Below are positions 6,762 to 63,165 of a stretch of DNA of 64,000 nucleotides, in pieces (the stretch's first letter is position 1; the number at the start of each line of letters is the position of its first letter). The DNA is from Octopus sinensis (Eukaryota), in contig NC_043004.1 of the NCBI RefSeq assembly GCF_006345805.1, forward strand, positions 29,636,001 through 29,700,000, written 5' to 3'. The position numbers and the translations under genes were made by a program. A model generated the notes under the pieces. The model was not told the DNA's origin. It did no database searches and saw nothing but the letters and a program-made list of their open reading frames with translations.

Positions 6762-6903
6762 ATCATCATCATCATTATCATCATTTAGCGTCTGCTTTCC
6801 ATGCTAGCATGGGTTGGACGGTTCAACTGGGGTCTGTGAAGCTGGAAGGCTTCGTCAGGCCCAGTCAGATCTGGCAGTGTTTCTACGGCTGGATGCGCTT
6901 CCT
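6762..6903 (-). mobile_element. RTE 3' tail fragment
   Basis: (CAT)n followed by gcgtctgctttccatgctagcatgggttggacgg. Confidence 0.8.
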
Positions 6904-6937
<34 letters not shown>

Positions 6938-7107
6938 TATACATACATGTATATATATTTATATATATAGAGAGATGTACTTGCATAGCAAGTGATTTGA
7001 TCTGAGATCGTGTGCTGAAACGAAAACAATTGCAGCGTGGAAGGTGTTTGTAAGCCATTTAAGAAACACACAAAAGCCATTCGATTCACTTCAACATTTA
7101 AGTTTAA

Positions 7108-7158
7108 TTTGTCAAAATATTTTCGTCGCAATGAGACCGCGACCTGTTCACTGACAAA
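7108..7158 (-). ncRNA. Minimal type I hammerhead-ribozyme-like motif with G3:C8 core
   Basis: Minus strand tttgtca GTGAACA g gtcgc ggtctcatt gcgac GAAA atat TT tgacaaa. Perfect 7-bp stem I, 5-bp stem II and palindromic stem III. Lies in a ~200-bp repeat (6970-7170) between microsatellites. Confidence 0.65.
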
Positions 7159-7200
7159 AATCCGTGCTGCATCATATATATATACATACACACACACACG

Positions 7201-7231
<31 letters not shown>

Positions 7232-7233
7232 GT

Positions 7234-8598
7234 ATCATCATCATCATCGTTTAACATCCGTTTTCCATGCTAGCATGGGATGGATAGTTCGACCTGGGTC
7301 TGGTAAGCCATGGAGGCTGCACCAGGCTCCAGTCTGGTTTGGCAGTGTTTCTACAGCTGGATGCCTTTCCTAACGCCAACCACTTCATGAGTGTAGTGGG
7401 TGCTTTTTATGTGCGACCGGCACAGGGGCCAGAGGAGGCTGGCAATGTCCACAATTGGCTGGTGCTCTTTACGTGCCACCGGCACAGACACCAGTCAAGT
7501 CAGCGCTGGCATTGGCCACATTTCGGATGATGTTTTTATGTGCCACCAGCACAGGTATCACAACTACAATTTCCATTTGATCTTTATTTTGATGTTTCCT
7601 CAAGCACAGCAGGTCACCCTACGATCCAAGGTAAGCACAACAGGCTGTCCTGCGAGCCATGAACTCACTTCATTTGTCAGGTCTTTGCAGTCACAGCATA
7701 TCTCCAGAGGTCTCGGTCTTTTGTCATTGCCTCTGTGAGGCCCAACATTTGAAGATCATGCTTGACCACCTCATCCCATGTCTTCCTGGGTCTACCTCTA
7801 CACCGGATTCCTTCAACTGTTTGGGAGTGGCACTTCACACATCTCTCCTCATCCATCCATAGTACATGACCATACCAACGTAAACGTCTCTGAGGGTGCT
7901 TAAACTCTGTCGTGCGTGCACATTGACATTACACATCCAGCAGATCATGCTAGCTTCATTTCTTTCGAGCCTACACATGTCCTCTGCAGTCATGGCCCAT
8001 GTTTCACTGCCATGAAGCATGGCAGTTCGCACACATATGTCGTACAATCTACCTTTCACTCTGAGTGAGAGACTCTTTGTCACCACTAGGAGAAGAAGCT
8101 TTCTAAACTTTGCCCAGGCTATTCTTATTCTAGTGGTAACACTCTTGGAGCATCCACCCTCACTACTAACTTGGTCACCTAGGTAGCGGAAGCTATCAAC
8201 TACTTCTAGTTTCTCCCCCTGGAGTGTGATGGAATCTGTTTTCTAAGTATCTGTGGTGTCTATTGCCCCATGTGCATCTGCCGCACACGAAAGCTACCTT
8301 CTCGGTTAATTTTCATTTGATGTTGCTGCACCCCTTATGTGTCCATAGTTTACACTGGGTACATCTTATGGAGTTTCTACCTATACCTTTTCTACAGATT
8401 GAGCAGGGCCACCTACACGAGGAGGTGTGTGATGAGTTCGCCTACTTACTGGAACTTTGGTCTTTGCTACATTGACTCTAAGGCCTTTTGATTCTAAACC
8501 TATCTTCCACACTCAAAATTTCTTTGCTAGTTCCGGTAGTGACTCTGCCATAAGGGCCAGGTCATCAGCATAGAGGAGCTTGCAGGGTCAACCCATCT
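7234..8598 (-). mobile_element. RTE-clade LINE, 5'-truncated, decayed RT plus 3' UTR
   Basis: LLYADDLAL near 8560-8580, SLRVKGRLYDICVRTAMLHGSETWAM, and a (CAT)n tail at 7234. Confidence 0.9.
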
Positions 8599-8639: not shown

Positions 8640-9120
8640 TGTTAGTTAGCCCCAGCATTGCTAGAAGTAAGAGTCAAAACAACTCTTAGGCATCTGAGTG
8701 CACTTTTCTAATGGCTGAGATGGGATCATATCAGTGCTGATTTCAGATTTAGTCAGTCTTCATCAGTGACCTATTATTCCATCGATGAGAGTTAGAGAAC
8801 ATAAGTCCCCTTGTCAGCCTCGTAGAAAGCAGCAAATCATTTCTAAAATGGTGAAGTGAGAATTATGAATTATTAAGGTTGCTATTCACAGTTTAGAACT
8901 GATAGGCAAAAAGTATAGCCATCATTAAAATGAGACTGACAAGGTGACTTAGGTTCTCTAACCCTCAGTGACAGAGTAATGGATCACTGTTGAAGACTGA
9001 TTAAATCTGAAATTAGTGCTGATATGACTCCATCTCGCTTGTCAGCCATTAGAAAAGTGTGTTTACATGGCTAAGAGTTGTTTTGGTTCTTATTTCTAGC
9101 AATGCTAGTGCTTACTAACA
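8640..9120. repeat. Inverted repeat (~180-bp arms, ~110-bp spacer) with a hammerhead-like motif in each arm
   Basis: 8640-8822 is the diverged reverse complement of 8931-9120. Motifs at 8720-8774 (-) and 8979-9033 (+). Confidence 0.8.
8720..8774 (-). ncRNA. Minimal type I hammerhead-ribozyme-like motif
   Basis: ataggtca CTGATGA aga ctgactaaa tct GAAA tcag ca ctga TA tgatcccat. Confidence 0.6.
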
Positions 9121-10822: not shown

Positions 10823-11278
10823 TCATCATCATCATCATCGTTTTACATCCTTTTTCCGTGCTATATATATATATGTAGTATCATAATGTATACATAATAC
10901 TCTGATTGTGATGTTAGCATTAAACTGTATGCCAGGGCAAGCTCAGAACTGGTTAGACAATATTGCAGAGTATTAAGAACTAAGAAGAATTACCACTGTC
11001 AGTTTTCTCTTCTAACTATAAGCATACATATGTGTGTATATGTATCCGTGTGTGTATGTATGTATGTGTGTGTGTGTGTTATTCTGGTGGCATTGGCAGC
11101 AGGTTAAATTGCATGTAAATGTTACAAGTCACTGCAGTTGGCATACTTCCACACCCCTAAGTTTGACAATTTCGGTCAGGCATGGGCAACATTTCTCAAG
11201 AAGCAGCTTACAGAAGATGCGACTCATCATCAGGCAAGTTGCTCTACTAAAAACATTCAAGGTACTTTTTCATTGACA

Positions 11279-11776
11279 TGCACATAAAAAGCACCATCCG
11301 AACGTGGCCGATGCCAGCGCCGCCTCGACTGGCTTCTGTGCCGGTGGAACATAAAAAGCACCATCTGAACGTGGCCGATGCCAGCGCCGCCTCGACTGGC
11401 TTCTGTGCCGGTGGCACATAAAAAGCACCATCTGAACGTGGCCGATGCCAGCGCCGCCTCGACTGGCTTCTGTGCCGGTGGCACATAAAAAGCACCATCT
11501 GAACGTGGCCGATGCCAGCGCCGCCTTGGCTGGCTTCCATGCCGGTGGCATGTTAAAAGCACCAACTGATCGTGGCCGATGCCAGACTCCCCTGGCACGT
11601 AAAAAGCACCCACTACACTCGTGGAGTGGTTGGCGTTAGGAAGGGCATCCAGCTGTAGAAACACTGCCAGATCAGACTGGAGCCTGGTACAGCCCCTGGC
11701 TTCCCAGACCCCGGTCGAACCGTCCAGCCCGTGCTAGCGCGGAAAACGGACGTTAAACGATGATGATGATGATGAT
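11279..11776 (+). mobile_element. Young RTE 3' tail with ~67-bp tandem repeat (4 near-identical copies plus a partial one)
   Basis: Unit gcacataaaaagcaccatctgaacgtggccgatgccagcgccgcctcgactggcttctgtgccggtg. CpGs intact. Ends in (GAT)n. Confidence 0.9.
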
Positions 11777-25902: not shown

Positions 25903-27029
25903 AGTGGTCTTGGAATGTGAACGTGGGTGTGTGGGACATGTTTGTAATGCTGTGTGTGTGTCATCTGCAATGGGTAACAGGGACAGTTTCCTCTATGAAG
26001 GCTTTTTTTTTAGTCCAGTGTCTTTATGATCATTAAGGTCTATAGTGAAAAATTTATCCGTGTGTGAAAGAAAACGGAAAGGACCTGCATACAGTGCTGT
26101 TAAGGGAGGTTTAACAACATCGTTGCGCACAAAAATGTGAGTCTAAGAAGTAAAGCTTCCTTTGAGGAAGAACTAGAAATGCAATTGTCAAGTAGGTAAG
26201 AGGTTTTAAACAGGAGCGATATATTTAAAATTAGTAAAAGTAAAAATTGTTGAGGATGAACTAAATTTATCATTGTTACTGAATATGTTAGTGTTATTTA
26301 ATTTCTGAACAGTTTTGCTGCCATTTATGTAGTTTGATTTCTTTATCCATCAGTTTCTAATTGTTTTAGTATCAACACTTGATCCCAGATGACACCATTT
26401 TCTAAACAAGTAAAATTCAAGAACACACATCATACATTCACACATACTTTGTGTTAGTCAGCGAAAGAAGAACAGTAACTGAACTTTCTTGCTGGGTCTC
26501 TGACATGGGGAGAGAGGTGAGAATGATGTAAGAAACTATGATTAATTGGTTGCTGTAGTAGGGAACAGCACATGACAATATTAAGTTTTTCTTACACCGG
26601 AGTTATAATTTGAATGTTTGAAAAAAAGGGGACAGTGGTAAAGGTACACAAGTGATGCATTCGGTCTAGTTGTAGACAGTACTTGGGAAGTATTTGGATA
26701 AAATCTTACTTCCATGAAGCTATTCCATTAATGCTGCATTAATAAGTCATCATCTCAGGAAGTCAAATGGTTTTGTGCCAAAAAAGAAACAACTGATTTA
26801 GTTTTTACTTCATCAACTTTAAAGAAAAGGTCAGAGAGCAAAGCTTTTATCTCTTCATTACTTTCATTGGTCTTATCAAAGTATTCAACAGTGTTAAGTG
26901 TGATAGTTTGTGGAAAGTACTCTCCAAGATTGGCTGTCCTCCTGGTTTTGTGGAAATCATGACATCCTTTCATAATGGAATGTAAAGAACTGTTGTTGAA
27001 AATAGAATCATAGTTACACCTTTTATTGG

Positions 27030-35948: not shown

Positions 35949-37351
35949 TGTTGTGTCTTGCTTGACACTGATATGTCCCGCATTATAACGATGTACTTCG
36001 TCATCTGCGTCATCTGGCCTGAATGACGTACCTCGCAGACTGACACCACTTGTGTCTGTCCACAATTGATTTGTAGTGGAACAGCCCACTATTCTCACTC
36101 AGTGGGAGTCCTCCACAACACCTCTCCTTTTGAGATTTAAAAGAAAATTTTTTTCTTCACACTGCATTGTATTCCCTTTTTTTTTTTTCACACTGCATTG
36201 TATTCCCTTTTTTGTTTCTTCACACAGCATTATTATATGTATTATTTTTCATATTCCATATCTTTCTCTTCTTCTCCAGAATGCTCCAGGCAGTTCCGGC
36301 TCTACATTCTTTCCAGTAATGCTACAAACATATGAGCGACCTGACTGAAATCTTTCAACGGACTTGTATTATTATTTTTCTTTTGTTCTTCTTCACACTG
36401 CATTATTATTATATATATTTTTTTTCATGTTCCATTTCTTTTTCTTCCACACACAAAATGTTTTTCTCCAGAATGCCTCAGGTAATATTGGCTCTACATT
36501 CTTACCAGTAGCACTACAAACACATAGCAACCTAACTGAAATCCTTCAAATGGACTTATATTATTTCTTTTTGTGTCCCACTGTTGTGGAGTATGTGAAA
36601 TTAGATTCCTCATCACCATTTTTACAAAGTCAGAGGATTTTCAATATTTTCCACTGTGTGTAGTTCGAATCTTTCTTCAACAAGATTTTTAATATTTTCC
36701 ACTGTGGGTAGTTCAAATCCTTCTTCAACAGGATTTTTAATATTTTCCACTGTGTGTGTAGTTTGAATCTTTCTTCAACAAGATTTTTAATATTTTCCAC
36801 TGCGGGTAGTTCAAATCCTTCTTCAACAGGATTTTTAATATTTTCCACTGTGTGTAGTTCAAATCCTTCTTCAACAGGATTTTTAATATTTTCCACTGTG
36901 TGTATAGTTTGAATCTTTCTTCAACAAGATTTTTAATATTTTCCACTGCAGGTAGTTCAAATCCTTCTTCAACAGGATTTTTAATATTTTCCACTGTGGG
37001 TAGTTCAAATCCTTCTTCAACAGGATTTTTAATATTTTCCACTGCGGGTAGTTCAAATCCTTCTTCAACGGGATTTTTAATATTTTCCACTGCGGGTAGT
37101 TCAAATCCTCATTGCCACTGTTGTGTCTTCCATCATTAACAACATTGTATCACAAAAGTTTGTTAACTCACCTGCGTGAGCTTTGAATCCTCATTGCCAC
37201 TGGTGTCCCGCATTATAATGACGTACTTCATCATCTGCGTGACCGGTCTGAATGATGTACTTTGCCAACTGACACCAACGTTTGTGTCTGTCCACTATTT
37301 ATTTGTAGTGGAACAACCCACTCCTCTCACTCAGGGATATCCTCCACAACA
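35949..37351 (-). mobile_element. Complete non-coding LTR retroelement (TRIM-like, probably Gypsy/Mag-dependent)
   Basis: Direct repeats 35949-36120 and 37119-37351, each TGTTGTG...CACAACA. PBS tggcaatgaggat (37117-37105, minus). PPT aaaaggagagg (36131-36121, minus). Flanks atatc/atata. Confidence 0.85.
36631..37110. repeat. 48-bp minisatellite, 10 copies
   Basis: Unit caggatttttaatattttccactgcgggtagttcaaatccttcttcaa, with two interleaved variants. Confidence 0.95.
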
Positions 37352-61735: not shown

Positions 61736-62120
61736 CTGTATCTATGTGTGTATGTGTATGTGTGTGTGTGTGTGTCAGATATTTCTCCCAATTTCCTCTC
61801 CCTTAGGTCAATCCTATATATGTCTTACTCACCCTATCCCCCTTCCACTCAAACTACAGCCAGCTCATATTACTCGTTCATCCTCTTATCTTGTGATACT
61901 TCTAATTCCCTGTTGCTTACTGAGATTGTTTCAATTCATTCATCTTATCATCTTTATCTAGCAATACCTTTTATAAGCAGTTCTCATTCTGCCTTTTATT
62001 GCTCAGCCACAATATATTATATTCCTATCTTACACAAGTATTTCTTTCTCTAGTATTTGTTTCTCTATCATGTCATTATTCTCATTTATCTGTCATATCA
62101 CTAACCTTCCTTCCATCTAT

Positions 62121-63165
62121 TTTGTGTTGGAAGGTGTAGTGTTGTGAGTTGAAAAGATGTAGTGTTGTTTGTTATGTAGCTGGTATGTTCTGAGTTAGAA
62201 AAGTGTAGTGTTGTGAGATAGGAAGGTGTGGAGCTGTGACATGGAAAGATGTGATTTGAGATTGAAAGGGGTGTAGTGTTGTGAGCTGAAAAGGTGAAGT
62301 GTTGTTTGTTAGATAGCTGGTATGTTCTGAGTTAGAAAAGTGTAGTGTTGTGAGATAGGAAGGTGTGGTGCTGTGAGCTGGAAAGATGTGATTTGAGATT
62401 GAAAGGGGTGTAGTGTTGTGAGCTGAAAAGGTGAAGTGTTGTGTGATAGGAAAGTGTATGCTTGGAGATAGGAAGGTTTAGTATTGTGAGTTGGGTAGGT
62501 GTAGTGTTGTGAGTTAGGAAGGGGTAAGGTTTGTGTTGGAAGGTGTAGTGTTGTGAGTTGAAAAGATGTAGTGTTGTTTGTTAGGAAGCTGGTATGTTCT
62601 GAGTTAGAAAAGTGTAGTGTTGTGAGATAGGAAGGTGTGGAGCTGTGAGCTGGAAAGATGTGATTTGAGATTGAAAGGGGTGTAGTGTTGTGAGCTGAAA
62701 AGGTGAAGTGTTGTGAGATAGGAAGATGTATGCTTGGAGATAGGAAGGTTTAGTATTGTGAGTTGGGTAGGTGTAGTGTTGTGAGTTAGGAAGGGGTAGG
62801 GTTGTGAGATAGTAAGGTGTGGTGCTGTGAGCTGGAAAGATGTGATTTGAAATTGAAAGGGGTGTAGTGTTGTGAGCTGAAAAGGTGAAGTGTTGTGAGA
62901 TAGGAAGATGTATGCTTGGAGATAGGAAGGTTTAGTATTGTGAGTTGGGTAGGTGTAGTGTTGTGAGTTAGGAAGGGGTAGTGTTGTGAGATAGTAAGGG
63001 GTAGTGTTGAGAGTAGGAAAGGTATTGTGTTGTGGAAATTGTAGCTTTGTGAGTTGGGAAGGTGTTTTGAGATAGAATAAAAAGAGATAATGTAGTGAAT
63101 TGGGGAAAGTAGAGTGTTGTGTGATAGGAAGGTGTAGTTTTGTGAGTTGGGAAAGTGTAGATGTA
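62121..63165. repeat. G/T-rich ~22-bp minisatellite with higher-order blocks
   Basis: Unit ~ggaaggtgtagtgttgtgagat. Diagnostic variant blocks recur at ~62180/62318/62589 and ~62243/62380/62652/62834. Confidence 0.9.

What the first reader, a model, noticed from the sequence alone, without database searches (positions are those of the whole stretch)
7108..7158. Structurally clean minimal hammerhead with inverted G3:C8 core pair
Seen (minus): tttgtca-GTGAACA-g-gtcgc(ggtctcatt)gcgac-GAAA-atat-TT-tgacaaa. Stems I (7 bp) and II (5 bp, G-C closing) are perfect and CpGs are intact, suggesting a young copy. Stem III is the palindrome AAUAUU. Both core changes from CUGANGA are mutually compensatory. 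Established: the C3G/G8C double mutant partly rescues hammerhead activity in vitro. Inference: this could be a natural G3:C8 ribozyme with a UUU triplet, cleaving after position 7115, possibly only as a dimer.
Basis: partly seen in the sequence, partly recalled or inferred. Interest (0 to 1): 0.75.

Follow-up and report, generated by a model that had tools for sequence, protein, structure and literature searches.

The report
Swapped-core hammerhead in Penelope-like retrotransposon
This 51-base stretch is one of thousands of copies of a hammerhead-shaped RNA motif at the end of a Penelope-like jumping gene, in which two paired core letters are swapped (G-C instead of the usual C-G that related elements in the same genome keep); it likely still cuts RNA slowly, but cutting is untested and left no trace in the genomic copies.

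Summary
The motif is real and sits where described. It is not a single copy's quirk: 3504 genomic copies carry G3:C8 with an intact stem II, and none with this stem carries C3:G8. It lies on the sense strand of a Penelope-like retrotransposon's terminal repeat, 0.9-1.0 kb behind a reverse-transcriptase/GIY-YIG reading frame. Related families carry the canonical C3:G8 core in the same architecture, with compensatory changes in all three stems, so the swap is a natural covariation. Against strong function: 5' junctions of copies show no peak at the predicted cut (11 of 134; neighbours 11-12); a predicted-dead G3.G8 variant made at least 14 independent insertions; the youngest sister subfamily has A9C; G3 is predicted to wobble with U17. 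Best reading: a slow, probably dimer- or protein-dependent ribozyme, dispensable for copying. This copy is a solo 200-nt fragment, not especially young, with no partner in the window. I found natural G3:C8 in no paper I could read (a key 2017 paper was not held). The scan noted this family before on other DNA, many times.

The parts
6970..7172 (-). Solo ~200-nt fragment of the terminal repeat (pLTR) of a Penelope-like element, family 'A'; carries the hammerhead and the first codons of the reading frame
   Evidence: dispersed copies 95-99% identical; same sequence 918-1043 nt behind the frame's end, same strand, in 5 loci
7108..7158 (-). Type I minimal hammerhead-like motif with G3:C8
7152..7158 (-). 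Stem I, 5' strand
7145..7151 (-). Core positions 3-9; G3 = 7151, C8 = 7146, A9 = 7145
   Evidence: 3504 copies with G3:C8
7144..7144 (-). Extra G between A9 and G10.1, shared with the canonical sister families
   Evidence: the search pattern fixed this G; an extra nucleotide here is typical of PLE hammerheads (PMC4209133)
7125..7143 (-). Stem II (5 bp) and loop II (7130-7138); loop II is where subfamilies differ (8- and 9-nt forms)
7115..7124 (-). GAAA, minimal palindromic stem III and U17; predicted cut between 7115 and 7114
   Evidence: cut position inferred from hammerhead numbering
7108..7114 (-). Stem I, 3' strand; a subfamily has G at 7112, which keeps a U-G pair
6972..7058 (-). Likely start of the element's reading frame (ATG at 7058-7056), cut off by the copy's end; so the hammerhead itself is likely non-coding leader
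   Evidence: in L106 this ATG frame runs on into the N-terminal part seen in L104's long frame; one locus only
6970..7025 (-). Optional 'tail': copies end either near 7024-7029 or at 6970-6972; this copy has the long end
   Evidence: 3' ends at positions 144-150 (82 of 234 hits) and 198-201 (132 of 234)
6901..6969 (.). (TA)n-rich microsatellite at the 3' insertion point
   Evidence: same context in most copies

Best explanation
The motif is the hammerhead of a Penelope-like retrotransposon's terminal repeat, with its tertiary core pair swapped to G3:C8 throughout the family, and it is likely a slow self-cleaving ribozyme that would cut after U17 only with help from a second copy or the element's protein. 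Shown: sequence, family-wide G3:C8, position and strand in the element, compensatory changes against sister families. Inferred: the swap was kept by long-term selection on the hammerhead fold; cleavage is slow enough that most RNAs are reverse-transcribed uncut, and is dispensable for a round of copying. This particular solo copy likely does nothing.
For: G3:C8 with intact stem II in 3504 copies, position 8 changed in 194, both 3 and 8 changed in 3, none to C3:G8. Parent element: 722-aa frame with RT motifs, CX3CX2C linker and GIY-YIG-like motifs, hammerhead on the same strand 918-1043 nt downstream in 5 loci, inverted 5' arms, two 3' ends, TA targets. A family 51-57% identical in protein has the homologous motif at the same place with C3:G8; 981 further motifs without G3, about 67 of the first 100 listed with C3:G8 (counted by eye). 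On 18 picked copies, 4 of 12 pairs show changes on both sides (3:8, stem I 2.3:1.3, stem II 10.4:11.4, 15.2:16.2); covariation score 0.247 against 0.144 shuffled, 0 of 500 shuffles as high, while the two families' 3' regions share only microsatellite matches in BLAST. Family A has U17 in 205 of 207 copies whereas C3:G8 relatives have C17 in 22 of 31; a G3-C8 mutant is reported less active with C17 (PMC3884650, passage), so U17 fits. C3G/G8C partly restores cleavage of a lizard PLE hammerhead, which needs the element's protein and is not needed for insertion in vitro (PMC11167929, sections read).
Against: No cleavage data. No excess of 5' junctions at the predicted cut: 11 of 134 junctions, against 12, 11 and 11 at three other positions. 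G3.G8 copies, a single change that abolishes cleavage in the lizard element (PMC11167929), number 120, and 14 of them form one lineage with unique flanks. The youngest sister subfamily has C9. G3 is predicted to pair with U17 (about 0.65) and the stem III dimer duplex is worth only -0.2 kcal/mol. An extra G after A9 was strongly detrimental in a viroid hammerhead (PMC3705267, passage), although published PLE hammerheads have it (PMC8557442, File S2). The covariation set was picked by a pattern that fixed part of the core and stem II, and family A contributes one event, not many.
Confidence: 0.58

Rival explanations
1. The motif is catalytically dead: a hammerhead-derived three-way fold kept as a structural or protein-binding element of the RNA leader, or simply inherited, with G3:C8 reached by two steps under weak selection.
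For: No cleavage footprint; G3.G8 lineage spread; C9 subfamily with intact frames; G3-U17 wobble; 8 of 9 frog retrozyme dimers did not cut (bioRxiv 10.64898/2026.07.22.740005, passage).
Against: All other catalytic positions (U4, G5, A6, A9, G12, A13, A14, A15.1, U16.1, non-G 17) are intact in family A although the flanks have diverged beyond recognition from the sister family; a purely structural role would not need the 3:8 pair restored; the double mutant is partly active in vitro (PMC11167929).
Confidence: 0.3
2. The motif is an efficient ribozyme in the cell (helped by the element's protein) that cuts tandem transcripts into units or circles, as proposed for PLE hammerheads.
For: Perfect stems I and II; proposal in PMC4209133 (sections read); protein-assisted cleavage in PMC11167929.
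Against: Thousands of copies run through the cut site, so their templates were uncut; no junction peak at the cut; no RNA ends at the site were found for the lizard element either (PMC11167929).
Confidence: 0.1
3. Chance look-alike, private mutations of one copy, or a by-product of protein coding (one frame is open across the motif).
For: One minus-strand frame is open over about 66 codons across the motif in many copies.
Against: 0 of 100 simulations; family-wide; homologous canonical hammerheads in sister families; the commonest subfamily has a 1-nt shorter loop II that breaks that frame, and the element's frame likely starts downstream in another phase.
Confidence: 0.02

Closest known systems
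Minimal type I hammerheads in pLTRs of metazoan Penelope-like elements (Cervera and De la Pena 2014, PMC4209133; parts 1-2 of 4 read)
   Same: Type I order, extra nucleotide between 9 and 10.1, G10.1-C11.1, vestigial palindromic stem III, place in the pLTR, mostly solo or opposite-strand copies; a natural U3-A8 covariation is reported there.
   Different: G3:C8 is not mentioned in the parts read; stem I here is 7 bp and stem II 5 bp in the family (4-5 and 7-8 bp there).
Hammerhead of Poseidon from Anolis carolinensis, PAc (Frangieh et al. 2024, PMC11167929; parts 1-2 of 4 read)
   Same: Hammerhead next to the frame start, two reverse-transcription start sites inside the first codons giving an optional tail, AT-rich targets, uncut RNA as main template; engineered C3G/G8C partly active.
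   Different: PAc is naturally C3:G8 and of the Poseidon clade; here G3:C8 is the natural state, the tail is about 55 nt, and the protein has the CX2-5CXXC linker.
Natural hammerhead core variants (Perreault et al. 2011, PMC3088659; section 8 and passages read)
   Same: Natural covariation of the 3:8 pair (U3-A8).
   Different: G3:C8 not among the variants named in the text read; figures not seen.
Neptune/Nematis-type EN+ PLEs (as described in Craig et al. 2021, PMC8557442; passages and supplement part 2 read)
   Same: C-terminal GIY-YIG-like domain behind the RT, CX2-5CXXC linker, (TA)n targets, inverted 5' arms, tail.
   Different: Clade not tested by a tree; all hammerhead cores listed in that paper's File S2 begin with C3.

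Membership tests
Hammerhead ribozyme (canonical consensus) | Core letters C3 and G8 (CUGANGA) | tested here: not met
   G3 and C8; so filed as a variant, not as a canonical member
Hammerhead ribozyme (canonical consensus) | Watson-Crick pair between positions 3 and 8 | tested here: met
   G3:C8 here, C3:G8 in sister families
Hammerhead ribozyme (canonical consensus) | U4, G5, A6, A9, G12, A13, A14, A15.1:U16.1, non-G at 17 | tested here: met
Hammerhead ribozyme (canonical consensus) | Three helices around the core, G10.1:C11.1 | tested here: met
   stems I and II predicted and covarying; stem III only 2 bp and not formed in the monomer fold
Hammerhead ribozyme (canonical consensus) | Match to an Rfam hammerhead model | tested here: not met
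   no hammerhead family among 62 matches at E<=1
Hammerhead ribozyme (canonical consensus) | Site-specific self-cleavage after position 17 | not testable with these tools
   only contig-level runs were offered; indirect genomic footprint test negative
Minimal PLE hammerhead (Cervera and De la Pena 2014) | Extra nucleotide between A9 and G10.1; palindromic minimal stem III | tested here: met
Minimal PLE hammerhead (Cervera and De la Pena 2014) | Located on the sense strand in the pLTR of a PLE | tested here: met
EN+ Penelope-like element | One frame with RT followed by a GIY-YIG endonuclease | tested here: inconclusive
   motifs seen by inspection in the 722-aa frame (motif names recalled and from PMC8557442); Pfam and PDB sequence searches returned no family
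EN+ Penelope-like element | 5'-truncated copies with inverted arms, optional 3' tail, AT-rich targets, pLTR-to-ORF junction | tested here: met
   junction in L106
Neptune or Nematis clade | CX2-5CXXC linker between RT and endonuclease | tested here: met
   residues 593-600 of the 722-aa frame
Neptune or Nematis clade | Placement in the clade on an RT tree | not tested
   no reference proteins fetched

The most novel reading that the evidence does not exclude
A natural hammerhead that flipped its catalytic C3:G8 pair to G3:C8 by passing through a non-cutting G3.G8 state that could still retrotranspose, and that is now tuned to be slow (G3:C8, U17, extra G) so that the element's RNA is copied uncut and cleaved only when its protein or a second copy licenses it: the completed swap and mobile copies of the intermediate state both lie in one genome.
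Probability: 0.2. Interest if true: 0.72.

Novelty: new variant of a known kind. Interest (0 to 1): 0.5.

Why it matters
The 3:8 pair is the tertiary contact that defines the active hammerhead; G3:C8 is known to me from print only as a laboratory rescue mutant, and searches built on CUGANGA would miss such motifs (Rfam missed this one). One genome offers a natural allelic series on a nearly identical scaffold (C3:G8, G3:C8, G3.G8, C9, scattered U3 forms), which makes the open question of what PLE hammerheads are for directly testable: long-term conservation of the fold, yet no sign that cutting is needed for copying.

Tried and rejected
(1) Cleavage footprint: of 30 loci (of 107 matches) with a non-T just before the cut site, 16 looked like 5' junctions at the cut, 5 were inversions in the 7-nt stem I microhomology and 9 were point changes or nearby junctions (sorted by eye). 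The control removed the signal: 189 matches from two first-100 lists (of 478 and 364 matches), 48 dropped as indel or point variants and 7 as internal rearrangements, left 134 junctions over positions 46-72, mean 5.0 per position, 11 at the cut, 12, 11 and 11 at three other positions. (2) A canonical C3:G8 ancestor within family A: none found. (3) G8 as marker of one old subfamily: rejected, it occurs on 21 different haplotypes and in 9 of 12 two-armed loci the other arm has C8. (4) Coding constraint on the core: rejected. (5) Core state in other species: runs of three other organism labels hold the repeat, but the variant tables stop at 7141, short of the core, so this is untested. (6) RNA ends at the cut: only contigs were available; they cannot show ends. 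(7) Pfam and PDB searches of the protein: no hit. (8) Papers not held: Lunse et al. 2017, Przybilski and Hammann 2007, and two structure/kinetics papers. One of three supplements of PMC4209133 could not be searched and figures are not held; its hammerhead alignments may bear on novelty.

Full report
Observation. It folds better than 199 of 200 shuffles (z -2.95), and a matching descriptor fired in 0 of 100 simulated windows. Rfam does not see it. The window lies in a 2.72-Gb animal genome; that it is an octopus is my inference and the wording of earlier scan notes, not a tested result.

It is a repeat. Window 6970-7172 has dispersed copies 95-99% identical (471 candidates, 40 scored). G3 was present in 30 of 30 fetched copies and C8 in 27. 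With anchors outside the motif, 1131 copies matched and 98 of the first 100 listed had both G3 and C8 (by eye). Exact counts: 3504 copies with G3:C8 and intact stem II, 194 with position 8 changed, 3 with both changed and none of these C3:G8. Frequent subfamily differences inside the motif fall in loop II (including a 1-nt length change) and at one stem I position that keeps a U-G pair. This copy is not specially young: nearest 98.5%, median 94.5% of 119.

Parent element. Extending upstream led to a 722-aa frame with RT motifs, a CX3CX2C linker and GIY-YIG-like motifs (assigned by inspection, since Pfam and PDB gave nothing). Copies with open frames up to 1042 codons exist. In five loci the motif lies 918-1043 nt behind the frame's end on the same strand. 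In one locus the repeat runs on into the frame's N-terminal part from an ATG that corresponds to window 7058, 56 nt behind the predicted cut, so the motif is likely non-coding leader. Copies have inverted 5' arms, two 3' ends about 55 nt apart and TA-rich targets, the marks of Penelope-like elements described in PMC8557442 (passages) and PMC11167929 (parts 1-2 of 4). The window copy is a solo end fragment; BLAST finds no second copy of the motif in the window.

Is the swap compensatory? A family 51-57% identical in protein has at the same place a motif with C3:G8, the same extra G and nearly the same stem II, although the two 3' regions share only microsatellite matches in BLAST. A pattern that excluded G3 gave 981 motifs, about 67 of the first 100 with C3:G8 (by eye). 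On 18 copies that I picked (2 of family A), 4 of 12 pairs change on both sides: 3:8, one in stem I, one in stem II and 15.2:16.2; 90% of cells pair, slid controls 24-47%, 0 of 500 shuffles reach the score. Caveats: the pattern fixed part of the core and stem II, relatedness inflates such scores, and family A is one evolutionary event. Family A has U17 in 205 of 207 copies; C3:G8 relatives have C17 in 22 of 31. PMC3884650 (passage; data not shown there) says a G3-C8 mutant is less active with C17, which fits avoidance of a G3-C17 pair.

Does it cut? For: every other catalytic letter is intact; C3G/G8C partly rescues a PLE hammerhead whose single mutants are dead (PMC11167929) and the Schistosoma-type ribozyme (review passage, PMC8495972). 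Against: G3 is predicted to wobble with U17 (0.64-0.67) and the stem III dimer duplex is marginal (-0.2 kcal/mol); an extra G was harmful in a viroid hammerhead (PMC3705267, passage), though several published PLE motifs have it (PMC8557442, File S2). I tested for a footprint. A first look seemed positive (16 of 30 loci began at the cut), but the control showed 134 junctions spread over 27 positions with 11 at the cut and 12, 11, 11 elsewhere: no distinct peak. Thousands of copies run through the site, so their templates were uncut, as for the lizard element.

Dead-looking variants move too. 120 copies of family A have G8, 99 of the first 100 with G3: about 3% of the 3504, against a C-to-G background of 0.29% at other non-CpG C sites (similar but not identical patterns). 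They lie on many haplotypes; 14 share diagnostic letters, have unrelated flanks and both kinds of 3' end, and 12 of them lie on contig C20 between 2.0 and 17.7 Mb, which points to a G3.G8 source element that made new insertions. All 23 hits with the stem I of the sister family's frame-bearing subfamily have C9 instead of A9 (the search motif included C9 but allowed 3 mismatches), while other copies of that family have A9. Cutting therefore looks dispensable in the short run, whatever keeps the fold over the long run.

Mechanism (committed, 0.58). The element's RNA carries the hammerhead in its leader; reverse transcription starts at one of two sites in the first codons and usually copies through the uncut motif into TA repeats (layout shown; enzymology from PMC11167929). 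The G3:C8 motif likely cuts slowly after U17, needing a second copy or the protein (inferred). Rivals: dead structural relic (0.30), efficient in vivo ribozyme (0.10), chance or coding artefact (0.02).

Known and new. It works like the minimal PLE hammerheads of PMC4209133, but fails the C3/G8 letter test, so I file it as a variant. Natural U3-A8 is in print (PMC3088659 section 8; PMC4209133). Natural G3:C8 appeared in none of my searches, nor in the parts of those papers, the review passages (PMC6765202, PMC6155905, PMC10085705) or the supplements searched; Lunse et al. 2017, the largest survey of PLE hammerhead variants, was not held, and figures are not searchable. Earlier scan notes report the same family repeatedly; I formed my reading before opening them.

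Verdict. Real, family-wide, compensatory; activity untested and probably low. New variant of a known kind; interest 0.5.

Noticed in passing
G000:C20:2.0-17.7 Mb (L442-L454), also L458, L459: A G3.G8 sub-lineage of the element with 12 independent insertions clustered on one contig, suggesting local hopping from a source with a predicted-dead hammerhead.
   Followed up: partly
L110-L119, L123 (e.g. L110:6887-6936): Sister Penelope-like family with long open frames whose hammerhead has C9 instead of the conserved A9, and C or U at position 17 by subfamily.
   Followed up: partly
family A, position 8 (window 7146): C-to-G at position 8 is about ten times the background rate and occurs on many haplotypes, often in only one arm of a two-armed insertion; only partly explained by the C20 lineage.
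   Followed up: partly
L003, L008, L024, L031-L060, just 5' of the position matching window 7172: Longer copies have a branch-point-like and acceptor-like sequence directly before the start of the 200-nt fragment (341 matches), while many short copies begin at that point after a G; an intron end or an RNA start site. Splicing not tested.
   Followed up: partly
L455-L457 (G000:C30:11.8-12.5 Mb): Short head-to-tail arrays of the 150-200-nt repeat end with several hammerheads on one strand, mixing G8 and C8 units, some next to the sister family's end; a natural setting for dimer cleavage.
   Followed up: no
window 8715-8771 (-): A second hammerhead-like match with canonical core, 5-bp stem I and a 5-bp stem III but only a 3-bp stem II; fold z -0.23, may be a decayed copy of another family or chance.
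   Followed up: partly
window 26359-26412: Weak 54-nt match (76%, E 2e-5) to the repeat's tail, with no hammerhead upstream.
   Followed up: partly
L067:4021-5499 and L066:1548-3348: Other Penelope-like frames (one resembling the Hydra-clade protein shown in the supplement of PMC8557442) lie next to family-A copies.
   Followed up: no
window 6765-6903 and 7231-7600: The copy sits between two copies of another abundant short repeat that begins after (ATC)n (11 copies in the window).
   Followed up: no
window 62108-63000, 36636-37169, 11213-11614: Tandem arrays with 23-nt, 48/50-nt and 67-nt units.
   Followed up: no
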